A DNA stretch of 64,000 nucleotides from a phage: the sequence record PZ386973.1. One strand, written 5' to 3'. The position numbers were made by a program, and so were the translations under genes. The notes below the pieces were generated by a model. That model was not told the origin of the DNA. It was given only the letters and a program-made list of their open reading frames with translations, and did not search any database. Below, piece after piece: positions 1 to 55,493 of this stretch. Position 1 is the stretch's first letter. The number at the start of each line of letters is the position of its first letter.

Positions 1-1393
1 TAGTTGTGGACATACGGTCAATAGCACCACGCTTAAAATTAAGCATATCTACAGACTTATCATATTGTCCTGCACTAAATTTCTTAGCATTTGAAGATAC
101 CAGTGCTCGAGTATTGGTAATTGCTAAGAAATTACCATTAATAACTCCTGAATCTAACCAACGCACAACCGCCGTAGTTTTACCTGTACCTAGACTTGCT
201 TTTACAAAAGTCATATAACCTTCTGGTGGTACAGTATTTAATTTCAAGAAGTTATCAGTCTCTAAAGAGTTAGTTTCTAGCTTTTTAAGTGGAATACCTT
301 TTAAAACATCCGGTATATCACGTTTAGAATTATTAACAAACGCTTTCAGAGCCTGTTTACGACCATTATTAAAGTAGTCTTGAATATTACGACTATTATC
401 TTTAGTTGCAATATATTCTGATAAGGCTGGACGAATTTCTTTTTCTAGCCATGCAAAATCAACACCATCCTCTAAAGCCCTGTGATAGAGTTTAGGAATA
501 ATACGTAGATACACTCCATCCTCAGCTTCTTCTAGTTCGCTGATAGTTTCTTCTACTTTATCAGAGGCAGCTTTTTTACCCTTAATTTGGTCGAGTAAAG
601 AGTAGAACTCTTCTTTAAACTCACCTCTAGTTGTTTCATAGTCAACCAGATTATTGGGTAAATTTACTTTAGAACCCTTAACAAATACCAGACGTGAAGC
701 ACCCTCCGCTTTAAACGGATCTACTATACCATCAGTAAATAAAGGATCTGCAAAATAATGGAGCTGTACGGAAGAGTAATAAGCTAAGTCGGCAATATCA
801 AAGCCATACTTTTGTCTACTACTTTCGTTGATAGATGTAAATAAGAATTTGATTTGACCCTGAGTTACTTTAACATTAGATTCTAGTATTAAGTGCATTC
901 GGATACCTGGTTTTAGCCCAGCCGAAGACGATGCATGAGCGATAAACCCTGCATCAAGAGGAAACATATCCTCACTAATACTATTTAACATTCTAATAAT
1001 ATGTCGAGCCATGCCAACAAGATCAAACTTGTTACAACCACCTGTATCTACAATACCATCCACGTCCATTGCAATTATATGGCTTGGATTAGATACATTA
1101 AAGTTGCCCTTCTTACGTCGCACATTATTTTTAGGTGCAAGACATCGACCTCGTACCGCAACGATATGAGGGTCAGACGTTAAACGTCTCATAAGAGGAA
1201 GCATTTCTACTAGGGTTTGAGGATCAACTTCATCAATTACATCAAACTTGAAGGGCATTGAAGCTGGTTTACCTTCAGGATGCTTTGAGGAAAATCTTTT
1301 AGCAAAAAGATAATCTTCTGCTTTAACTTCTCGCCAATTGCCTGTGGCTAAATCGCGATGAAATCCTGCATGACCTTGTAGGATTGAGAACAC
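1..1393 (-). CDS. replication-associated P-loop NTPase (N-terminal part; C-terminus lies beyond position 1)
   Basis: Stop-free minus-strand frame from a GTG at 1393 (AGGAG 7 nt upstream) to the window edge; Walker-A-like SLGTGKTT; absent from the ORF track because it runs off the window. Confidence 0.55.
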   Translation of the reverse strand, partial: MFSILQGHAGFHRDLATGNWREVKAEDYLFAKRFSSKHPEGKPASMPFKFDVIDEVDPQTLVEMLPLMRRLTSDPHIVAVRGRCLAPKNNVRRKKGNFNVSNPSHIIAMDVDGIVDTGGCNKFDLVGMARHIIRMLNSISEDMFPLDAGFIAHASSSAGLKPGIRMHLILESNVKVTQGQIKFLFTSINESSRQKYGFDIADLAYYSSVQLHYFADPLFTDGIVDPFKAEGASRLVFVKGSKVNLPNNLVDYETTRGEFKEEFYSLLDQIKGKKAASDKVEETISELEEAEDGVYLRIIPKLYHRALEDGVDFAWLEKEIRPALSEYIATKDNSRNIQDYFNNGRKQALKAFVNNSKRDIPDVLKGIPLKKLETNSLETDNFLKLNTVPPEGYMTFVKASLGTGKTTAVVRWLDSGVINGNFLAITNTRALVSSNAKKFSAGQYDKSVDMLNFKRGAIDRMSTT

Positions 1394-2016
1394 AACAATA
1401 CTCCTGTGTTGGAAATGAAATAAGTTTTCTTTAGGACTATTCAGAAAGAATAGAACAACTGTTACTGTCAATTTCTCAACAAATTAATCGCAAATACTGA
1501 AGTGGGGTGGCAACTTCCACTTTCACGCTGCGCTGCTGCCTCATTATACCGCACAAATCCTTGAGGATGGCCGCTAAGCCAGATTTGCTCACCTAATGCT
1601 TCATATACTAGCTCATACTAGATGCAATATAACTTACAGAATCACGTCTCGGTAGTTTTTCACTCCTCCCATCTCACTTCACAACCACCTCATACTAGGT
1701 TGCTTCGAGGCCTTACCAGGGTTCCTATGGGACGCAGATCGCTAAGTATTCTATTAACTATTTGTTTAAAAACTAACACGTAACAGTTAAAACAACCCTT
1801 AATGGGGCAGCCTAACTGTTCCGTATCGCGGATTGTAAACAAGAAAAATTAGCAAAATCAATTTTTACTAATGTCTCTCAATTCAATATAAATATTATAT
1901 CAAGATTTTGGGCATCCTGCAAGTAAAATTTTCCGGATGGTGCTATCATTGGTCTTGAGTACGGATAAAACCGAGCCAAAATGACTCGGTAATCAGAGTT
2001 CAGCTAATAAAAATCA

Positions 2017-19926: not shown

Positions 19927-20097
19927 ATGAAATCAGTTGTAATTATTGGTGTTAACACTCGCGGTATTCGTACTACGAAAACTGTTAAAACTTCTAACAT
20001 TGCTGAAATCACTACGAACCCTAAAAAGTTTGATTTCGCCAAAGTCTCAGCAGTTATGACAGAACAATCTTTTAACCAAGCATTGGGGATGAAATAA
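19927..20097 (+). CDS. hypothetical small protein
   Basis: ATG after GAGGAAG; about 56 codons; below the track length threshold. Confidence 0.35.
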   Translation: MKSVVIIGVNTRGIRTTKTVKTSNIAEITTNPKKFDFAKVSAVMTEQSFNQALGMK

Positions 20098-20531
20098 TGG
20101 GTACGAACATGATTCGTGTACTACGAGAGTTGATTGAAGATGCTCGTAAACGTGGAGATACTGTATCGGTTAAGCACCTAAGTACGATTCTAGGTGACTT
20201 GCAACGTATTAACAAGGATTGCATAACTAAGCTGGAATTTACTAACTGGCTGAAATCCCAGTTCAAGGCAATTGAGAATACACAGACTGCTGCTGAAAAA
20301 GCAAATGTCGAATATATTCCTGATGATGAATATCTAGATCTTTTAGCAGGTTTAGAGTATGAATACGCTTTGCAACAGCTGACTGAAACCGAAATTCGTA
20401 AATACTTTGCAGAACTAGTTAAATTAAACCCAGGTATTACCAAAGCCCTACTAATGAAAACTATTAAGGCAGAGTTCCCAGGGCGTTATGATGGTAAAAC
20501 AACTGCTTTGATTGCTAGTGAATTTTTCTAA
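20097..20531 (+). CDS. hypothetical protein
   Basis: Track ORF. Confidence 0.5.
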   Translation: MGTNMIRVLRELIEDARKRGDTVSVKHLSTILGDLQRINKDCITKLEFTNWLKSQFKAIENTQTAAEKANVEYIPDDEYLDLLAGLEYEYALQQLTETEIRKYFAELVKLNPGITKALLMKTIKAEFPGRYDGKTTALIASEFF

Positions 20532-20539
20532 AAATTCAT

Positions 20540-20568
20540 TTGCTAAATGCTTATAAATTCTGTATAAT
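20540..20568 (+). promoter_or_regulatory. early promoter module
   Basis: Reads into the 900-nt non-coding RNA region. Confidence 0.55.
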
Positions 20569-20801
20569 ATATTCATAAATTAGAGAACAGCGAGCCGATT
20601 ACGCTGAGTGCAGAATCCCAACCGGAGCGCATTGAATAGAGTCGGTGGGTTAGTTGTAAAACTAGTACACAGGGGGCGGCAATCCCGGTTAGTGGCTAGA
20701 ACGTGTAAAATGGGGCGTCTGAAACCTCTCCCTTAAACTCTTCTCTAATCTATAAATAGTGGGGTGTGGAAATCACTTATGTAGTAACACTGCCGTCCTA
20801 A

Positions 20802-20888
20802 GTTAATTGGTAGACTTCTGCACGCGGAGATTATATCTCCAGATGCGGAAAGTGCAGGTTCGAATCCTGCGGTCGGTAAGAACTGGAT
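20802..20888 (+). tRNA. tRNA-like element (isotype unresolved)
   Basis: GGTTCGAATCC T-loop; acceptor GCCGTCC/GGTCGGT has one mismatch; anticodon arm not resolved. Confidence 0.35.
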
Positions 20889-21380
20889 AACTGGTGCTTT
20901 TAACGTAAAAGCTTCCGAGGTTAGTTGCGCACTGCCTAAACCACGCGGTAGTTGGTTCCAGGCTAACCAACCCGTCTGCTGAATAGTTTTATTACGATTT
21001 AGCTATGTCCAGGCTAAAGAAGAACTTTAGAAGGTATTCTAGGATAGTGAAGTTCTTTCTCCATATCGGAGTAGTTTTTCAGGCTATCCACAAAGTGGGA
21101 AATGCTGACATGAGAGATGTCACTAATGGTGCACAATAGCACAGGTAATTCGCGATAACTCCTGTTGAGTAGCAGCAAAAGGCGGGAAGTCATGACCCCA
21201 AGCCTAACCGAGTCCTCAATATACCGCAGGACATAACCACTAAGTCACCCTGACTTAAACTGGAAAATAATAGACGTTACTGTATTTTGTCTTGAAATAC
21301 TTAATGAGTGAGACTTATGACTCTCCCGGTATCGTCTGTATTTTTAAGAATTTTTACGAGAGTTCTTAAAAATACTTAAA

Positions 21381-21452
21381 CGGGGTGTAGTCTAAGGGAG
21401 AGGCAGGAGTCTTCTAAATTCCTTTATGCAGGTTCGAATCCTGTCACCTCGG
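21381..21452 (+). tRNA. tRNA-Arg (anticodon TCT)
   Basis: 7-bp acceptor, T-arm GCAGG-TTCGAAT-CCTGT, anticodon loop CTTCTAA, encoded CCA. Confidence 0.7.
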
Positions 21453-21489
21453 CCAATTTTATTAACTGTAACTAAAACAAAGGAAATAT

Positions 21490-22437
21490 ATGTTTGCTAC
21501 TAAAAATATGAAAGAACTGACTTCTGAGCAGAAAGTAATTCGTACTATTAAACGTTGGGGTATTGGTGCTGTAGTTGGTTTAGCAGGTTTAATCCTAGCT
21601 TTTAATTCATATACTATTGTTTCTGATGGTACGGTTAAAACCCAAACATTCCTGGGTAAAGTAGACCCTAATCCAGTATTGCCAGGTTTCCATCTTGTAA
21701 ACCCGTTTGCATCTTTCGATACTTTTAGTACAAAAGATATTGCTGTAAAATTAGATAAACTTCAGGTTCCTAGTCAGGATAAGTTTAAATCCACTGTTGA
21801 CCTGACTGTTATGTTGCAGTTTGATGGTTCTAAGGCACCTATTAACCGTATTAATGCGGGTACTCAGGATCAGGCACTAGACAAGTATGTAACTGAAAAA
21901 TTACTATCTACTATTCGTGAGTTTGGTAAGTCTGTACCTAAAGCACAAGATTTGTTTGATGCTAAAATTCAGGCTCAATTGCAAACTGCAATTCAACAGG
22001 AAGTTGAAGAGTATGCACGCCCATATGGTTACACAGTTAAGCAGGTGTTCCTTCAGGATATTACTTTGCCACCGGTAATCATGGAACAGGTACAGAATAC
22101 CAAAGTTCGTGAAGAGCAAGTTAATGCTGCGAAAGCTGAACTGGCTCGTGTTGAACAGGAAGCACAGCAAAAAGTTAAACAAGCAGAAGCAGATCGTGAA
22201 GCTCGCAACAACCAAGCTATTGCTAATGAACGTGACGCAGATGCTAAACTGTACGCAGCTAAGAAAGAAGCTGAAGCTAACGCCGCATTGCAACGTACCA
22301 TTACTCCTGAGATGATTCGCTGGAAGCAACTGGAAGTTGAAATGATTCGTGCTCAGAAATACCAAGGTGGTGTACCACAGACGGTAGTTGGTACTGGTTA
22401 TGATGGCCAGATGATTATGGATATGCGTAACAAGTAA
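21490..22437 (+). CDS. SPFH/band-7 (prohibitin-like) membrane protein
   Basis: N-terminal TM helix, central SPFH-like region, Ala/Glu/Gln-rich coiled coil. Confidence 0.65.
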   Translation: MFATKNMKELTSEQKVIRTIKRWGIGAVVGLAGLILAFNSYTIVSDGTVKTQTFLGKVDPNPVLPGFHLVNPFASFDTFSTKDIAVKLDKLQVPSQDKFKSTVDLTVMLQFDGSKAPINRINAGTQDQALDKYVTEKLLSTIREFGKSVPKAQDLFDAKIQAQLQTAIQQEVEEYARPYGYTVKQVFLQDITLPPVIMEQVQNTKVREEQVNAAKAELARVEQEAQQKVKQAEADREARNNQAIANERDADAKLYAAKKEAEANAALQRTITPEMIRWKQLEVEMIRAQKYQGGVPQTVVGTGYDGQMIMDMRNK

Positions 22438-22514
22438 TAGTTACACGTAATCTTCGAACCAAGCCTGCGTTTCCCTCGAGAGCGCGGGCTTTTCTGTATT
22501 TAAGGCAAAAGAAA

Positions 22515-25087: not shown

Positions 25088-25162
25088 GGTTCTCAAGCTC
25101 ATATGGTATGAGCACCCGGCTCATAACCGGAAGGTACGTAGGTTCGAATCCTCGGGGAGCCA
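25088..25162 (+). tRNA. tRNA with CAT anticodon (Met or Ile2)
   Basis: Acceptor GGTTCTC/GGGAGCC with G-U pairs, D-stem GCTC/GAGC, loop CTCATAA; T-stem pairing weak. Confidence 0.55.
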
Positions 25163-29333: not shown

Positions 29334-29407
29334 GCGGGTTAGATCTCTGGTAGAGATCGCTAGTCTCATAAGCTAGAAAGAGGTAGGTTCGATTCCTGCA
29401 CCCGCTT
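29334..29407 (+). tRNA. tRNA with CAT anticodon (Met, fMet or Ile2)
   Basis: T-arm GTAGG-TTCGATT-CCTGC, loop CTCATAA; acceptor end pairing ambiguous at position 1. Confidence 0.5.
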
Positions 29408-29430
29408 CCATTTTAATAGAGGATTTCGAA

Positions 29431-29598
29431 ATGAAAGTATTTCGATTAGTAGTAAGTGATAAACGTTTAGGTAAGAATACATCAAAATCCTTACTCGCTC
29501 ATTACGGTAAAAATTGGGATGAAGTAATGGTAGAGTTTAGTACTAATCACCCTTACCTGAAAGTTCACTCTATTAAAGAAGTATACAATGGTTACTAA
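29431..29598 (+). CDS. hypothetical small protein
   Basis: ATG 29431; 55 codons. Confidence 0.4.
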   Translation: MKVFRLVVSDKRLGKNTSKSLLAHYGKNWDEVMVEFSTNHPYLKVHSIKEVYNGY

Positions 29599-29599
29599 T

Positions 29600-29675
29600 A
29601 GATCGCTAGCTCAATAGGTTTAGTAGCATCCGACTTTTAATCGGAAGGTTCTGGGTTCAAGTCCCAGGCGATCTA
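29600..29675 (+). tRNA. tRNA-Lys (anticodon TTT)
   Basis: Acceptor AGATCGC/GCGATCT, anticodon stem TCCGA/TCGGA, loop CTTTTAA. Confidence 0.75.
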
Positions 29676-29696
29676 CCAATTTCAAGAAAAACGCAG

Positions 29697-29725
29697 TTGC
29701 TTGATGCTTAATTTCTTGTTATAAT
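29697..29725 (+). promoter_or_regulatory. early promoter module
   Basis: TTGCTT-N17-TATAAT followed by a GATGAGGATTTCTCCTCATC hairpin. Confidence 0.55.
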
Positions 29726-29963
29726 ATTTATATAAATTGATGAGGATTTCTCCTCATCATAGTTCACTAAGGTATTAGCTCGACCTAGGACTGGCTGCCA
29801 AAAAGCACGATCCCTACGATTCGGGAGAAGTTCTAGATTAGTCCACTAGATTCAGCGGCAACTGAATAGTGTATCGGGTTTGCGAGATGACGTAGTTCCT
29901 TCCGCTCGAAGCGAAGGTGCTGTAGTTACGCCGAGCTAATAGCCTTAGTAAATTAAAGAATTT

Positions 29964-30039
29964 GGGGGATGGGTCTGCTAGGAGTGGACACCTCGCTTGC
30001 ACCGAGGACATCAGAACGATTCGAATTCGTTATCCTCCA
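29964..30039 (+). tRNA. tRNA-Ala (anticodon TGC)
   Basis: Acceptor GGGGGAT/ATCCTCC, anticodon stem CCTCG/CGAGG, loop CTTGCAC. Confidence 0.65.
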
Positions 30040-30047
30040 CCAAATAC

Positions 30048-30121
30048 GCGTGATTGATGGAATGGGCATACATACCGTCCTTAGAAGTCGGGTTTTGAGG
30101 GTTCGAATCCCTTGTCACGCA
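30048..30121 (+). tRNA. tRNA, anticodon read as TAG (Leu-type) on a class I body
   Basis: Acceptor GCGTGAT/GTCACGC, T-arm GAGGG-TTCGAAT-CCCTT, loop CTTAGAA, A73; D-arm pairing unclear. Confidence 0.5.
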
Positions 30122-30236
30122 CCAAATTTGATGGTCAGAGTAAATTAAACCTACTATCTCGGTTGAGCTGTTTTAATGGGTTCGAATCCCAGCGAGGCGT
30201 AACTGCCTGGCGTGATAGAGGCATCATCTTATTATT

Positions 30237-30324
30237 GGAAGAGCAAATCGAATTGGCGACGAAAACCGCTTGGAAAGTGGCTGACTGGTAAAACGGCTTG
30301 AGAGTTCAAATCTCTTCTCTTCCG
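30237..30324 (+). tRNA. tRNA-Ser (anticodon GGA)
   Basis: Acceptor GGAAGAG/CTCTTCC, loop TTGGAAA, long variable arm. Confidence 0.6.
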
Positions 30325-30339
30325 CCAAACAATTTATAT

Positions 30340-30431
30340 GGTAGGTCAATCCAAAGGCTGGCGCTGGACTCCGACTTGAAATCGGTTGATCGTAGTGATA
30401 CGGTGTAAGGGTTCGATCCCCTTACCTACCT
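30340..30431 (+). tRNA. tRNA-Ser (anticodon TGA)
   Basis: Acceptor GGTAGGT/ACCTACC, anticodon stem CCGA/TCGG, loop CTTGAAA, long variable arm. Confidence 0.65.
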
Positions 30432-30439
30432 CCAAATCT

Positions 30440-30570
30440 TGGAATATGCCGGAATTAGTAGACGGGACTGCCGAATAGGTTTACTAGGAACATCCACTCC
30501 TAGAAATATACCTTAAAGGCGGTTGAGATAAATGGTCTATCTCGTGAAGGTTCAAGTCCTTCTATTCCTT
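30440..30570 (+). tRNA. tRNA-like element (Leu-type D-arm, over-length)
   Basis: GCCGGAATTAGTAGACGGG resembles a Leu D-arm; T-arm GAAGG-TTCAAGT-CCTTC; 131 nt, no clean cloverleaf. Confidence 0.3.
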
Positions 30571-30684
30571 GATACATCAATGGCTCAAAGTGTAACGGTG
30601 CTATTTGATGCTCTTGGAAAGACTTTCCCGACAGGCGTTCGGGGGTAAGCTTCTGAGGCTAGAATAGAAGAGTTTCTGAGAGCC

Positions 30685-30804
30685 GCCACAATTGAAAATT
30701 CGTACTCGTCTTGAGCTGCGTGCAATAGGAGATAACTTGATTAGTATTCTAGAACATGCTAATTGAGGATGGTTTCGCTAACCCTGCGAGTTTTCAATTG
30801 TGGC
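30685..30804 (+). ncRNA. candidate structured RNA closed by a perfect 14-bp long-range stem
   Basis: GCCACAATTGAAAA (30685-30698) is the exact reverse complement of TTTTCAATTGTGGC (30791-30804). Confidence 0.35.
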
Positions 30805-30873
30805 TATATCATAATTGGTTAATGATCCTGATTGTGAATCAGGCCTATGTGGATTCGAATTCCACTAGCCACC
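30800..30873 (+). tRNA. tRNA-His (anticodon GTG)
   Basis: Acceptor GTGGCTA/TAGCCAC, anticodon stem CCTGA/TCAGG, loop TTGTGAA, C73. Confidence 0.7.
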
Positions 30874-30901
30874 CCAAATTAACTTAAATAGGAAATAAAA
30901 T

Positions 30902-31492: not shown

Positions 31493-31503
31493 CCAAATAA
31501 TAG

Positions 31504-31576
31504 GCGGTTAAGCACACGGGTTGTGTCGCAGGCCTTCCAAGCCTCGCTGAGTAGGGTTCGATTCCCTCTAGCCGCT
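31504..31576 (+). tRNA. tRNA-Gly (anticodon TCC)
   Basis: Acceptor GCGGTTA/TAGCCGC, loop CTTCCAA. Confidence 0.6.
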
Positions 31577-49435: not shown

Positions 49436-49452
49436 ACATTAACAAAATCTTC

Positions 49453-49482
49453 TTGACAACTCATTGCGGCACATGTTATAAT
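49453..49482 (+). promoter_or_regulatory. consensus sigma70 promoter (TTGACA-N18-TATAAT) reading into the repeat field
   Basis: Canonical hexamers; no ORF downstream for about 1.4 kb. Confidence 0.5.
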
Positions 49483-49835
49483 AATCTCATAGATTAAAAA
49501 CAACTCTTGTTTTGAACTCTAGGGGCGATGATTATTACACTTAGTATTACGTCTATACGTTGCGACAGCACGAGTATAGATCTAATTACTAAGTCTTCCG
49601 TAATACTCACGCGCCCCACGAGTAAGCTCTCATGAAATGGGGGGACTATTTACTTTTAAAATATATGAAAATATTTAAAGGCAATATCTGTGTTCAAGAT
49701 GGTACACCTGTTGCCGCTCTTCTGCTAGGATGGCACAACACTTTCTTCTAGACTCCTAAGTTTATCACGAAATACCACACTTCTAGTGGGCGGTTCTCCT
49801 AAGTTTCTAGGAACATATACTAGGCGGTTAATACA

Positions 49836-49880
49836 GGGCGGTTATAGGGAGGGCGGTTATAGGGAGGGCGGTTATTTCTA
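49836..49880. repeat. tandem repeat, 3 copies of GGGCGGTTAT(A)GGGA
   Basis: Three adjacent copies read directly. Confidence 0.8.
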
Positions 49881-49917
49881 GAAGACATTTTTTGAAAACA
49901 CATTTCCAGAAATTACT

Positions 49918-50517
49918 GTCGGATTTGCACACTGCATTTCTAGAAATTTATGGTCGGATTTGCACAAACGCCTAAGTTTTTAGGAACATATAATCTCTTG
50001 AAAATAGCAGCATTATTTCGGGCCGAAGGCCCATGATTGCCTGAGTTTTTAGAGCCACAGAAATTTTCCCTTGTCAAGCTATTTTGCCACATTTAGCTAA
50101 TAAAATTTTACTTTTTCTGCACCTATCTCAAATCTTCTCCAATTATCTCAACTCTTCCCCAAAATCCCGGCAAATCTGGTGCTCCGCACCAACCATGCGC
50201 CCACATCCCTCTAGTCCCCAAAATTTCTTCGTTCTCTCAACTTCTCTCCAAACCTATACAATCACACACCCTCTAATCGAAGTCATAAAAATCTTGTCGG
50301 ATTCGCACATCTTAATCCTAGAAAAACCGTGTCGGATTTGCACATACCCCACAGGATTCGAACGCAGTTCGTGATTGCTGGAGTTTTTGGGAAAATTCAT
50401 TGTCGGATTCGCACACTATAAAAATTTTTAGGGTCGGATTTGCACACTACCAAAAATTGTCGGATTCGCACATACACGCCAGCACGTAACCCGTGGAGCA
50501 AATGTCGGATTTGCACA
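49918..50517. repeat. iteron array: 8 direct copies of GTCGGATT(T/C)GCACA
   Basis: Copies at 49918, 49963, 50296, 50331, 50402, 50433, 50459, 50504, all same orientation. Confidence 0.85.
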
Positions 50518-54415: not shown

Positions 54416-54681
54416 TCTCTTGTCTCCCTCGTTAATCGGTGAGTGAATGATAAAGGTATTTTCTTTCTAGGGGCAAATATTATTTTACCTTTTTATTTTC
54501 CTTGCCTAACGCCTAGTTTTATGCTAACCGCGCAGCGGTGCAATAAAGAGCAAACCACGGCGAAGCCACCAGGCCGACGCATCGAGGCTTTACTTTAATA
54601 TTACCCCACCGCATTTAGCTCGTTAGAAAGCGTTTTAGGCGGCCTAAAATTGATTGCAGTTGTTAACACTACCTTTTTACC

Positions 54682-54721
54682 CTGTATATTTATACAGTAG
54701 GATAACCTGTGGATAAGTCTG
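54682..54721. repeat. right arm of the 40-bp inverted repeat (partner 50796-50835)
   Basis: CTGTATATTTATACAGTAGGATAACCTGTGGATAAGTCTG. Confidence 0.8.
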
Positions 54722-54789
54722 TGTAAAACTCCTTATATCGCCGCCTATCGTGTCAAATTATTTTGTGCTGTGGATAACGTTGTGGATAA
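54699..54789. promoter_or_regulatory. cluster of DnaA-box-like 9-mers (TGTGGATAA orientation)
   Basis: TGTGGATAA at 54708, 54769, 54781; TAGGATAAC at 54699. Confidence 0.6.
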
Positions 54790-55150
54790 CTTAAATGATA
54801 GTGGTTCTCACTTAGGCCGATAGTTTCTTATAGTTATTATTTCTATCGGTTACGATTTCTTATAATTATTATTTCTCACTAATTTATATGTATATTATAT
54901 ATTATAGAATAGTTAGTTGGCTAATGAGATTTTCCGTGATTAATAGTCTGCTAATAGTTTAAGCCGTTACAATCCACCAGCATGATTATCATCCTAGCAA
55001 TTATTAGTCTGCTATCTTTCCGATGCATACTAACAAATAAAAGTCAATTAATTTAGTTCATAAAATAAGTAGTTATCCACTGGAAAATAAAAGTCAAGTG
55101 GATAACTAGGAAAATTTCATTTTTGCTTTTGGGGATAAGTTATCAACAAG
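54790..55150. promoter_or_regulatory. AT-rich region with an inverted DnaA-box pair (origin-like)
   Basis: Long A/T-rich tracts; TTATCCACT at 55073 and AGTGGATAA at 55097; no ORF. Confidence 0.4.
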
Positions 55151-55493
55151 GCTAGAATGCGCCTAAAACGCCCTAGAATGCGATGAAAGTTTTAGTCATG
55201 CCATTGCATTGCCTACCCTCGTTTATCTCTACCACGAGCTTTTTAGGTTTTGTCAAGTAGGGCAAAGCAAATATAAATGAAAAAATTACTTGCCTATCTG
55301 CTATGTTTTGTGGTATTCGCGCGCCCGTTTCTTTTAATTTTAGTGCGCCGCGCCCAGGTCGCCGCACGCCGTCCGGTGAATCGTGTCTTTACATTTCTTT
55401 ACAAAAATAAGGTTGCGCCATTTTCGGGAATCCCCTATTATTTATCACGTAGGGCGGCAATGACGAACTACACGGCGGGAAGTTTACCGCCAC

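What the first reader, a model, noticed from the sequence alone, without database searches (positions are those of the whole stretch)
20581..21380. About 800 nt of promoter-driven non-coding sequence ahead of tRNA-Arg
The early promoter at 20540 is followed by no ORF of 60 codons or more. The region contains one T-arm-bearing tRNA-like element (20802-20888) and strong hairpins, including a 12-bp stem at about 21340-21378 directly before tRNA-Arg.
Basis: seen in the sequence. Interest (0 to 1): 0.45.

Follow-up and report, generated by a model that had tools for sequence, protein, structure and literature searches.

The report
T5 phage RNAX: large structured RNA
The 800-base gene-free stretch encodes RNAX, a long, elaborately folded non-coding RNA that T5-like phages make early in infection; GenBank already annotates it as a stable RNA of unknown function, and comparison across phage genera shows that its fold is strongly conserved.

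Summary
The window comes from a T5-like phage (Tequintavirus). Bases about 20575-21380 are the orthologue (94% identity) of 'rnaX / RNAX, stable RNA with unknown functions', annotated in the GenBank records of T5, BF23 and DT571/2. In those records it lies between promoter P16-17 and tRNA-Arg(UCU).

No small ORF is conserved. Rfam recognises only an embedded tRNA-like element at 20792-20878.

Comparison of 55 distinct units from seven Demerecviridae genera shows a modular, heavily base-paired RNA. About 180 pairs are predicted and 67 of them show compensatory changes. In two formal tests no shuffle in 500 reached the observed values.

The universal core is a 12-bp stalk (20772-20785/20882-20895) with conserved C•C and G•G mismatches. 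In this phage its tip carries the tRNA-like cloverleaf, which has no anticodon loop. Other conserved parts are a hairpin with a near-invariant palindromic loop (AGUCAUGA, 21188-21195) and an AU-rich terminal hairpin (21338-21375).

RNAX lies inside the region deleted in T5 st0. Its function is unknown. The closest analogues are GOLLD and ROOL, large phage RNAs found near tRNA islands, but RNAX does not match their Rfam models.

Verdict: an already annotated feature, confirmed as a real structured RNA, and worth experimental study.

The parts
20540..20568 (+). Early promoter (the equivalent of 'P16-17' in T5 and BF23): -35 TTGCTA, 17-nt spacer, -10 TATAAT.
   Evidence: Consensus scan. Annotated as a promoter in NC_042564 and AY734508. 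Conserved in all related loci, including Proteus and Pectobacterium phages.
20575..21380 (+). RNAX transcript. The start is inferred at about 20575 from the -10 box; the GenBank RNAX start maps to 20582. The end is the base before tRNA-Arg.
   Evidence: 93.7-94.4% identity over the full length to the annotated BF23 rnaX. No Rfam family other than tRNA. No conserved ORF.
20575..20753 (+). 5' domain, closed by helix P1 (20575-20586 with 20742-20753). Inner helices: 20588-92/20602-06 (P2), 20607-10/20630-33, 20638-42/20737-41 and 20647-49/20730-32. T5 and DT571/2 lack the interior (20587-20735).
   Evidence: RNAalifold on 34 sequences gave 39 pairs, 13 with compensatory changes and 93.8% paired, against 34-49% when partners were slid. 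The T5-type deletion is seen. The P2 hairpin is also present in Providencia and Proteus phages.
20772..20895 (+). Stalk: a 12-bp helix (20772-20785 with 20882-20895) interrupted by conserved C•C (20776/20891) and G•G (20781/20886) mismatches. It carries a variable tip. This is the universal core of the family.
   Evidence: 99.5% of cells paired and 7 of 12 pairs with both-side changes; found in all 55 units from 7 genera, in 13 distinct versions, 12 of them paired 12/12; tip length 35-85 nt. Single-sequence folds predict the stalk in six lineages.
20792..20878 (+). tRNA-like cloverleaf at the tip of the stalk: acceptor stem, D arm with GG, and a canonical T arm (GGUUCGAAUCC). The anticodon arm is lengthened and capped by a 3-nt loop, so there is no anticodon. 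No CCA is encoded.
   Evidence: Rfam tRNA 42 bits with a 20-nt insertion. ARAGORN negative. The acceptor and T stems covary. 17 nt of the T arm are identical to tRNA-Arg (D2). At least 4 alternative tips occur in relatives, including a non-tRNA tip.
20896..20912 (+). Hairpin directly 3' of the stalk (GCUUUUA-ACG-UAAAAGC).
   Evidence: 3 of 6 pairs have both-side changes and 95% of cells are paired. It also passes the stringent covariation scan.
20913..21065 (+). Variable central region with lineage-specific hairpins, containing the conserved single-stranded motif AAACCACG.
   Evidence: Alignment blocks. 16 pairs, 6 with compensatory changes.
21066..21211 (+). 3' domain, closed by 21066-69 with 21208-11. 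It contains hairpins 21088-91/21095-98 and 21106-11/21117-22, the branched helix 21123-34/21169-81 with 21141-45/21161-65, and the palindromic-loop hairpin.
   Evidence: RNAalifold by the tool gave 38 pairs, 16 with both-side changes. The pair count shows 94.2% paired against 86.3% in shuffles (0/500), and 31-43% when slid.
21180..21205 (+). Hairpin whose 8-nt loop AGUCAUGA (21188-21195) contains the self-complementary UCAUGA (GUCAUGAC when the closing bases are included).
   Evidence: AGTCATGACC is one of only three invariant stretches of 9 nt or more in the 50 distinct units. The stem covaries, with 4 of 8 pairs changed on both sides. The motif is kept in Proteus phages at a different position relative to the stalk. 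One variant, AGUCAUGCCC, occurs in L174.
21212..21263 (+). Hairpin 21212-16/21228-32, followed by helix 21237-39/21261-63 enclosing hairpin AGUCA-CCC-UGACU (21242-47/21251-56).
   Evidence: All 5 pairs of the first hairpin have both-side changes (helix 7). The second element is nearly invariant.
21338..21375 (+). AU-rich terminal hairpin of 13-17 bp, placed 5 nt before tRNA-Arg. Its sequence is almost invariant across subfamilies.
   Evidence: 92-100% identity between Pectobacterium and Salmonella/Klebsiella phages, where the rest of the RNA has diverged beyond blastn detection. It is not terminator-like: no GC-rich stem and no U tract. It is present even where no tRNA follows.
21381..21455 (+). 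tRNA-Arg(UCU), immediately downstream. Its 5' processing would define the 3' end of RNAX.
   Evidence: ARAGORN and Rfam. In the GenBank records RNAX ends at the base before this tRNA.

Best explanation
This is the rnaX gene of a T5-like phage. It encodes an RNA of about 800 nt that is not translated and that folds into a chain of independently closed domains.

Shown here:
- It is orthologous to the annotated RNAX of T5, BF23 and DT571/2.
- It is driven by a conserved consensus-like early promoter.
- It has no conserved ORF.
- Its helices are maintained by compensatory substitutions across seven genera of Demerecviridae.
- Its architecture is modular. It comprises a 5' domain, a 12-bp stalk with two conserved mismatches that carries an exchangeable tip (here a tRNA-like cloverleaf without an anticodon loop), a 3' domain with a near-invariant palindromic loop, and a near-invariant AU-rich terminal hairpin.

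Inferred:
- The primary transcript runs on through tRNA-Arg and the SPFH gene to the terminator at about 22461-22491.
- RNase P cleavage at the 5' end of tRNA-Arg releases RNAX.
- The terminal hairpin then protects the new 3' end from exonucleases. This would account for the 'stable RNA' annotation.

Most likely function (about 35%, not shown): a trans-acting accessory RNA that is not needed in laboratory hosts. It would act as a scaffold or decoy for proteins that recognise RNA shape. The tRNA elbow would engage tRNA-handling or tRNA-targeting factors. The mismatched stalk and the palindromic loop would serve as protein-binding or self-pairing (dimerisation) sites.
For: - Identity.
- Non-coding.
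- Structure: (32 pairs, 94% paired, 16 pairs with both-side changes against 7.9 in shuffles, 0/500; slid controls 31-44%). (38 pairs, 94.2% paired, 16 against 6.2, 0/500). (about 180 pairs, 67 with compensatory changes; in four of five modules the compensatory count is above every one of 200 shuffles). (stalk in all 55 units, 13 versions).
- Strand: U•G is the commonest pair at two stalk positions. On the other strand these would be C•A mismatches.
- Breadth: Tequinta-, Epseptima-, Sugarland-, Hongcheon- and Novosibvirus plus Providencia phages.
- Independence from tRNA-Arg: Sugarlandvirus units are followed by a CDS.
- Dispensability: RNAX lies inside the 8,208-bp segment deleted in T5 st0. 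The complete BF23 genome keeps only the first 253 nt of the query (H77) and lacks tRNA-Arg.
- tRNA-island context and anti-defence roles of T5 tRNAs: PMC11464382 and PMC10644984.
Against: - No expression or stability data were available. 'Stable RNA' rests on a GenBank note.
- The transcription start is uncertain: about 20575 by consensus, 20582 in GenBank.
- Single-sequence folding energy is unremarkable on the + strand (z = -1.77) and lower on the - strand (z = -3.78).
- The tRNA-like tip is replaced by a non-tRNA hairpin in some phages (L026, L043, L052, Proteus, Providencia), so tRNA mimicry cannot be the whole function.
- The terminal hairpin, and in Providencia phages the palindromic loop, are missing in some genera.
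- No helix linking the domains was found, so the unit could be several RNAs rather than one.
Confidence: 0.85

Rival explanations
1. RNAX is a self-assembling 'ornate' RNA in the manner of GOLLD and ROOL. Copies would associate through the invariant palindromic loop, and perhaps other contacts, into dimers or larger RNA-only assemblies that hold or present the tRNA-like module.
For: - The self-complementary loop UCAUGA/GUCAUGAC is invariant in the 50 units scanned. It is kept in Proteus phages although the module order differs.
- The hairpin stem covaries while the loop does not.
- GOLLD and ROOL are phage-encoded, lie near tRNA islands, are 580-800+ nt long, have a variable 5' part, sometimes contain tRNAs, and build nanocages through kissing loops (PMC12286853). 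RNAX shares every one of these contextual traits.
Against: - No match to the Rfam GOLLD or ROOL models, even at E<=10.
- One palindromic loop alone gives dimers, not cages.
- L174 has a loop variant (AGUCAUGCCC), and Providencia phages lack the motif.
- An invariant palindrome could equally be a protein-binding site.
- There are no biophysical data.
Confidence: 0.2
2. The region is a cis-acting leader. Its structure would control processing, stability or translation of the downstream tRNA-Arg and SPFH-gene transcript, and it would have no role of its own in trans.
For: - There is no terminator between the hairpin and tRNA-Arg. The first terminator-like site on the + strand is at 22461-22491, so the RNA is co-transcribed with downstream genes.
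- The order RNAX then tRNA-Arg(UCU) recurs in Tequinta-, Epseptima-, Hongcheon- and Novosibvirus.
Against: - The downstream partner varies: tRNA-Arg, a 510-nt ORF or other CDSs.
- An HNH gene can sit between the promoter and the core.
- 640-1300 nt of covarying multi-domain structure is far more than known leaders need.
- The GenBank authors list it as a separate stable RNA.
Confidence: 0.12
3. The stretch is evolutionary debris of the tRNA island: a decayed tRNA gene plus spacer, transcribed but without function.
For: - The tRNA-like element lacks an anticodon loop, and annotators variously call it pseudo, 'OTHER', Ser, Pro or Sec.
- The region is dispensable in the laboratory.
Against: - Compensatory changes maintain about 180 base pairs.
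- The stalk is intact in all 55 units across 7 genera.
- Three sequence blocks are invariant.
- The unit is retained in every Demerecviridae genus examined.
Confidence: 0.02
4. The region encodes one or more small proteins (candidates: 20608-20736, 42 aa; 21005-21139, 44 aa).
For: These ORFs exist in the window, and some genome annotations list short hypothetical proteins here.
Against: Each ORF is intact only in the closest relatives. All are broken by frameshifts or stops, or are absent, in T5, Epseptimavirus and Sugarlandvirus. No Shine-Dalgarno sequence precedes the 21005 ATG (sequence). The substitutions follow base-pairing, not codon structure.
Confidence: 0.02

Closest known systems
RNAX (gene rnaX) of phages T5, BF23 and DT571/2, as annotated in GenBank AY734508, NC_042564 and NC_047749
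   Same: Same locus: promoter P16-17, then RNAX, then tRNA-Arg(UCU), then the SPFH/band-7 gene. 93.7-94.4% identity to BF23 RNAX over the full length. Same boundaries.
   Different: Nothing essential; this is the orthologue. Lengths differ by module content: 784 nt in BF23, 719 nt in T5 and 636 nt in DT571/2. The window carries the 87-nt long-arm tRNA-like tip instead of the 72-nt T5/BF23 version.
GOLLD and ROOL large ornate RNAs (Rfam families; cryo-EM nanocages, PMC12286853)
   Same: Phage-encoded. Located at or near tRNA islands. 600-1300 nt of multi-domain, covariation-supported structure. Less conserved 5' part. A tRNA or tRNA-like sequence can be embedded. Function unknown. A conserved loop capable of loop-loop pairing.
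   Different: No similarity detectable with the Rfam covariance models. The hosts are Enterobacterales and the phages are virulent, rather than mostly Gram-positive, marine or prophage settings. Oligomerisation is untested. Module order is not fixed.
Other 'stable' and 'tRNA-like' RNAs of the T5/BF23 tRNA region (RNA1, RNA2, RNA3, RNAI, RNAIII, RNAIV, RNA 2H), and the species 1/2 (C/D) RNAs of phage T4 (the T4 RNAs are cited from my own knowledge)
   Same: Small stable RNAs of unknown function, co-transcribed with phage tRNAs. Some have tRNA-like ends.
   Different: Those RNAs are 74-172 nt. RNAX is 5-10 times larger and multi-domain, and its tRNA-like element is internal and sits on a helix.
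Bacterial Y RNA / YrlA (a tRNA-like module on a protein-binding stem); own knowledge
   Same: A tRNA-like elbow module mounted on a long helix with conserved internal irregularities.
   Different: No Rfam hit to any Y RNA or YrlA model. No Rsr/Ro gene nearby. RNAX is much larger.
HIV-1 dimerisation initiation site and phi29 pRNA (loop-loop pairing between RNA copies); own knowledge
   Same: A hairpin loop with a 6-nt self-complementary sequence preceded by purines (A-G-UCAUGA).
   Different: This is an analogy of motif only. Dimerisation of RNAX has not been tested.

Membership tests
RNAX of T5-like phages (GenBank misc_RNA rnaX) | Lies between the early promoter P16-17 (downstream of the phrog_1460 gene) and tRNA-Arg(UCU), followed by the SPFH gene. 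| tested here: met
RNAX of T5-like phages (GenBank misc_RNA rnaX) | Full-length nucleotide homology to an annotated RNAX. | tested here: met
   93.7% identity over 826 nt to NC_042564 rnaX (H42); 94.4% over 922 nt.
RNAX of T5-like phages (GenBank misc_RNA rnaX) | Accumulates as a stable RNA in infected cells. | not testable with these tools
   Only the GenBank note 'stable RNA with unknown functions'. No paper on it was found.
tRNA (Rfam RF00005) | Cloverleaf scoring above the family's gathering score. | tested here: met
   42 bits against 29 at 20792-20878.
tRNA (Rfam RF00005) | A 7-nt anticodon loop with an anticodon. | tested here: not met
   20 nt are inserted, forming a 6-bp extension capped by a 3-nt loop. 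ARAGORN makes no call.
tRNA (Rfam RF00005) | Free 5' and 3' ends after processing, and a 3' CCA. | tested here: not met
   The flanks form a covarying 12-bp stalk plus a 2-bp extension. The acceptor stem is followed by A-AGA, not CCA. Processing itself cannot be tested here.
GOLLD / ROOL (Rfam) | Match to the family covariance model. | tested here: not met
   No hit at E<=10 in 20500-21480. No hit at E<=1 in eight related loci. No hit at the gathering threshold in the whole window.
GOLLD / ROOL (Rfam) | A large phage-encoded structured RNA beside a tRNA island. | tested here: met
   the description of those families is.
GOLLD / ROOL (Rfam) | A homo-oligomeric RNA-only assembly. | not testable with these tools
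   The only pointer is the palindromic loop.
Intrinsic (Rho-independent) terminator, for the 21338-21375 hairpin | A GC-rich stem followed by a U tract. | tested here: not met
   The terminator scan does not report it. The stem is AU-rich and is followed by UUAAAC.
Small protein-coding gene | An ORF kept intact across relatives. | tested here: not met
   Frameshifts, stops or absence in most lineages.

The most novel reading that the evidence does not exclude
RNAX is a new class of phage 'ornate' RNA, functionally akin to GOLLD and ROOL. It would be a modular scaffold that pairs with itself through the near-invariant palindromic loop and displays an exchangeable tRNA-like (or other) tip on a conserved mismatched stalk. 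It would be used early in infection to capture or shield tRNA-recognising host factors. Because it sits in T5, a classical E. coli phage with viable deletion mutants, it would give this enigmatic group of RNAs its first genetically tractable model.
Probability: 0.2. Interest if true: 0.8.

Novelty: already known. Interest (0 to 1): 0.55.

Why it matters
Large structured RNAs of unknown function are rare in bacteria and phages. The best-known examples, GOLLD and ROOL, were only recently shown to form RNA cages, and their biology is still unknown. RNAX has sat in GenBank for some twenty years, since the T5 record AY734508, as 'stable RNA with unknown functions'. I found no Rfam family for it and no paper on it in the searchable literature. 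This analysis shows that it is a conserved, covariation-supported, multi-domain RNA present throughout T5-like phages of Enterobacterales. It has a defined core (the stalk, the palindromic loop and the terminal hairpin) and a rapidly exchanged tRNA-like tip. T5 and BF23 are easy to grow and mutate, and natural deletions already exist, so simple experiments could reveal what such RNAs do. A role in the tRNA-centred arms race between phages and host defence is one possibility.

Tried and rejected
- An all-against-all column-pair scan with loose criteria was swamped by chance 4-bp stacks. A stringent version recovered known helices and two weak long-range candidates (20673-76/21076-79 and 21216-19/21292-95). 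I do not trust these; one of them conflicts with a well-supported hairpin.
- The metagenome scan used a pattern that was too loose: 53 loci were returned, of which 7 were true T5-like hits and 46 were chance.
- The genome-contig scan for the terminal hairpin gave one chance hit in an archaeal MAG.
- A 15-nt complementarity between 20725-20739 and the D arm of tRNA-Arg (I7), and a second one at 21311-21327 (I8), were rejected. The first segment is absent from T5-type units, it is not complementary in Epseptimavirus, and it is already used in conserved local helices.
- The thrice-repeated CAGGCUA motif (D1) is not conserved in other lineages.
- Single-sequence folding z-scores do not discriminate between strands.
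- Pfam and PDB sequence searches of the upstream protein gave nothing.
- Six literature searches and one look-up by PubMed id found no paper describing RNAX.

Full report
**What the window is.** A megablast of 20400-21600 finds 483 phage records, almost all T5-like phages of Escherichia, Salmonella and Klebsiella, the best at 95-96% identity. The window holds the T5-type tRNA island: ARAGORN tRNAs, starting with tRNA-Arg(UCU) at 21381-21455.

**Checking the observation.**
- A consensus-like promoter (TTGCTA, 17 nt, TATAAT) lies at 20540-20568. The promoter scan alone is not above chance (5 found, 6.0 expected). The site does coincide with the feature annotated 'promoter P16-17' in the T5 and BF23 records, and it is conserved in all relatives.
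- No + strand ORF longer than 44 aa follows the promoter. 20532-21489 is the second-longest stretch in the window free of ORFs of 60 aa or more on either strand. The longest such stretch is another tRNA and stable-RNA cluster.
- The tRNA-like element is real but lies at 20792-20878. It scores 42 bits against the Rfam tRNA model (gathering score 29), with a 20-nt insertion in place of the anticodon loop. ARAGORN does not call it.
- The hairpin before tRNA-Arg has perfect 13-nt arms (21338-50 and 21363-75) and up to 17 pairs. It occurs once in the window and never in 100 shuffles.

**It is an annotated feature.** Three GenBank records annotate this interval as misc_RNA 'rnaX, RNAX, stable RNA with unknown functions': the BF23 tRNA gene region NC_042564, T5 AY734508 and DT571/2 NC_047749. 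In each it runs from promoter P16-17 to the base before tRNA-Arg, with lengths of 784, 719 and 636 nt. The window is 93.7-94.4% identical to BF23 RNAX over its full length. The BF23 record lists seven further small 'stable' or 'tRNA-like' RNAs of unknown function in the same island. I found no paper that describes RNAX. Rfam has no family for it: the only significant hits are tRNA, even at E<=10 with relaxed filters.

**Non-coding.** Each small ORF in the window version is intact only in the nearest relatives. All are frameshifted, interrupted or absent in T5, Epseptimavirus and Sugarlandvirus. Across 40 distinct units, long ORFs appear only where a homing-type HNH gene has been inserted just after the promoter (L027, L049).

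**Distribution.** I collected 55 distinct units.
- Tequintavirus units are 636-805 nt.
- Epseptimavirus units are about 850-1100 nt.
- Sugarlandvirus units from Klebsiella phages are about 1250-1300 nt. They are followed by a CDS rather than a tRNA.
- Pectobacterium phage DU_PP_V (Mccorquodalevirinae) and a relative have units of about 990 nt.
- Providencia phages PR1 and PSTCR5 and Proteus phages (Novosibvirus) also carry units.
- Metagenomes added only T5-like contigs. The terminal-hairpin pattern is absent from 185,579 representative bacterial and archaeal genomes apart from one chance match.

The RNA therefore appears confined to virulent Demerecviridae of Enterobacterales.

**Structure.** The units are mosaics of conserved junction sequences and exchangeable hairpins.
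- RNAalifold on five overlapping modules predicts about 180 pairs, 67 of them with compensatory (both-side) changes. 90-95% of cells are paired, against 21-53% when partners are slid by 1-3 columns. In four of the five modules the compensatory count exceeds all 200 column shuffles.
- First formal test (20768-20915, 18 sequences from four genera): 32 pairs, 94.0% paired against 84.8% in shuffles, and 16 pairs with both-side changes against 7.9. No shuffle in 500 reached either value. Slid controls gave 31-44% paired and 0-4 such pairs.
- Second formal test (21060-21236, 10 sequences): 38 pairs, 94.2% against 86.3%, and 16 against 6.2, again 0/500. Slid controls gave 31-43%.
- U•G is the commonest pair at two stalk positions. 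This fits an RNA read from the + strand and not from the complement.
- Single-sequence folding energy is not informative (z = -1.77 on +, -3.78 on -).

**Anatomy in window coordinates.**
1. A 5' domain is closed by P1 (20575-86 with 20742-53). T5-type phages have lost its interior but keep the closing inverted repeat.
2. A 12-bp stalk (20772-85 with 20882-95) is interrupted by C•C and G•G mismatches. It is present in all 55 units, in 13 sequence versions, 12 of them fully paired. It is predicted independently by single-sequence folding in six lineages.
3. The tip of the stalk is variable.
   - In this window and in some Sugarlandvirus units it is an 87-nt cloverleaf. This has a normal acceptor stem, a D arm with GG and a canonical T arm, but its anticodon arm is lengthened and capped by a triloop.
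   - In T5 and BF23 it is a 72-nt pseudo-tRNA.
   - In some Epseptimavirus units it is a 72-nt version that annotators call tRNA-Sec(UCA).
   - In other Epseptimavirus units, and in Proteus and Providencia phages, it is a non-tRNA hairpin of 35-45 nt.
   - Because the acceptor stem continues into the stalk and no CCA is encoded, the element is an embedded tRNA-shaped module, not an ordinary tRNA gene.
4. A covarying hairpin follows at 20896-20912.
5. A variable central region follows.
6. A 3' domain is closed by 21066-69 with 21208-11. It contains a hairpin whose 8-nt loop AGUCAUGA includes the self-complementary UCAUGA. AGUCAUGACC is one of only three invariant stretches of 9 nt or more in the 50 units then in hand; the others are AACACUGCC at the junction of stalk and tip, and AGAGUUCUUAAA in the terminal hairpin. 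The stem covaries. Proteus phages keep GUCAUGAC in a hairpin placed upstream of the stalk, so module order can change while the motif stays. One relative has AGUCAUGCCC, and Providencia phages lack the motif.
7. The AU-rich terminal hairpin is 92-100% identical between Pectobacterium and Salmonella or Klebsiella phages, in which the rest of the RNA is no longer alignable by blastn. That points to sequence-specific recognition. It is not terminator-like.

**How it probably works.**
- Shown: it is a promoter-driven, non-coding, structurally constrained RNA built from modules.
- Inferred from the layout: transcription continues through tRNA-Arg and the SPFH gene to the terminator-like site at 22461-22491. 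That site corresponds to the annotated bidirectional terminator ter1.
- Inferred: RNase P cleavage at tRNA-Arg generates the RNAX 3' end 5 nt after the terminal hairpin, which would block 3' exonucleases. Where no tRNA follows, another nuclease (a long perfect duplex suggests RNase III) may cut instead.
- Dispensability: AY734508 is exactly the 8,208-bp segment deleted in T5 st0, and it contains rnaX. The sequenced BF23 stock retains only the first 253 nt of the query and lacks tRNA-Arg. An accessory role therefore fits better than an essential one.
- Context: the island's tRNAs are known to counter tRNA-directed host defences, and the tRNA-like tip is the most rapidly exchanged part of RNAX.
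- My best guess (about 35%) is a trans-acting scaffold or decoy that presents a tRNA elbow and other protein- or RNA-binding modules.
- Self-association through the palindromic loop, by analogy with GOLLD and ROOL, is the most interesting alternative (about 20%). Those are phage RNAs near tRNA islands, sometimes containing tRNAs, and they are held together by kissing loops.
- A purely cis-acting leader (about 12%), non-functional debris (about 2%) and small-protein coding (about 2%) fit the data less well.

**Novelty.** The feature is already annotated, so as a discovery it is not new, and this copy is simply the orthologue. What the analysis adds:
- family-wide conservation across seven genera;
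- statistical support for the fold;
- definition of a universal stalk with two conserved mismatches;
- the finding that the tRNA-like element is an exchangeable tip mounted on that stalk;
- the near-invariant palindromic loop;
- the parallel with GOLLD and ROOL.

None of this establishes the function. That needs the experiments listed under next steps.

Noticed in passing
window 25088-25162; also 30340-30430 and 31503-31576: Rfam finds a tRNA at 25088-25162 (40.3 bits) that ARAGORN misses. By synteny with BF23 it is probably tRNA-Ile2. Two further tRNA-like hits, below the gathering score of the tRNA-Sec model, probably correspond to the tRNA-Ser and tRNA-Gly genes of the BF23 map.
   Followed up: partly
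window 29370-30901: This is the largest ORF-free stretch in the window (1.5 kb). It matches the part of the BF23 map that holds several tRNAs plus the annotated 'stable' or 'tRNA-like' RNAs of unknown function: RNA 2H, RNA1, RNAI and RNAIII.
   Followed up: partly
window 219-2016, 49436-50083, 54416-55172: Other stretches of 650-830 nt have no ORF of 60 aa or more on either strand and no Rfam hit at the gathering threshold. They were not examined. The first may be the long non-coding region that T5-like phages have at the border of the first-step-transfer DNA.
   Followed up: no
window 20097-20531 (+), and the homologous genes in L059, L047, L058, L180: The gene directly upstream of RNAX belongs to phrog_1460, labelled 'tRNA amidotransferase' (E = 1e-37). 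It keeps this position next to RNAX in Tequinta-, Epseptima-, Hongcheon- and Novosibvirus and in Providencia phages. It has no Pfam or PDB sequence match. It is a possible protein partner of the RNA. In Sugarlandvirus it is not adjacent.
   Followed up: partly
L027 and L049 (36-518 of the extracted units); L047 1379 onward and L049 1187-1696: Selfish-gene traffic occurs around RNAX. In some phages a 160-aa HNH endonuclease gene is inserted right after the RNAX promoter, replacing the 5' domain. In some Epseptimavirus genomes a 510-nt ORF of unknown function is inserted between the terminal hairpin and tRNA-Arg.
   Followed up: partly
L002 and L013 (T5) and L114, at the position of window ~21256-21263: T5 and one metagenomic relative carry an insertion of about 85 nt. 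It is flanked by a duplication of AGUCACCUUGACUUAAACUGGAA and encloses a long hairpin.
   Followed up: no
window 20853-20869 and 21427-21443: 17 nt of the T arm of the tRNA-like element are identical to the T arm of the adjacent tRNA-Arg. This suggests that the tip derives from tRNA-Arg or has been converted by it.
   Followed up: no
L179 and L180 (Proteus phages), ~1000-1160: In Novosibvirus the palindromic-loop hairpin lies upstream of the stalk, not downstream of it. A separate T-arm element sits elsewhere in the unit. RNAX modules can therefore be permuted.
   Followed up: partly
window 20575-21455, - strand: The reverse complement folds with a more negative z-score (-3.78) than the + strand (-1.77). 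This is unexplained. The covariation, including the G•U pairs, still favours the + strand.
   Followed up: partly
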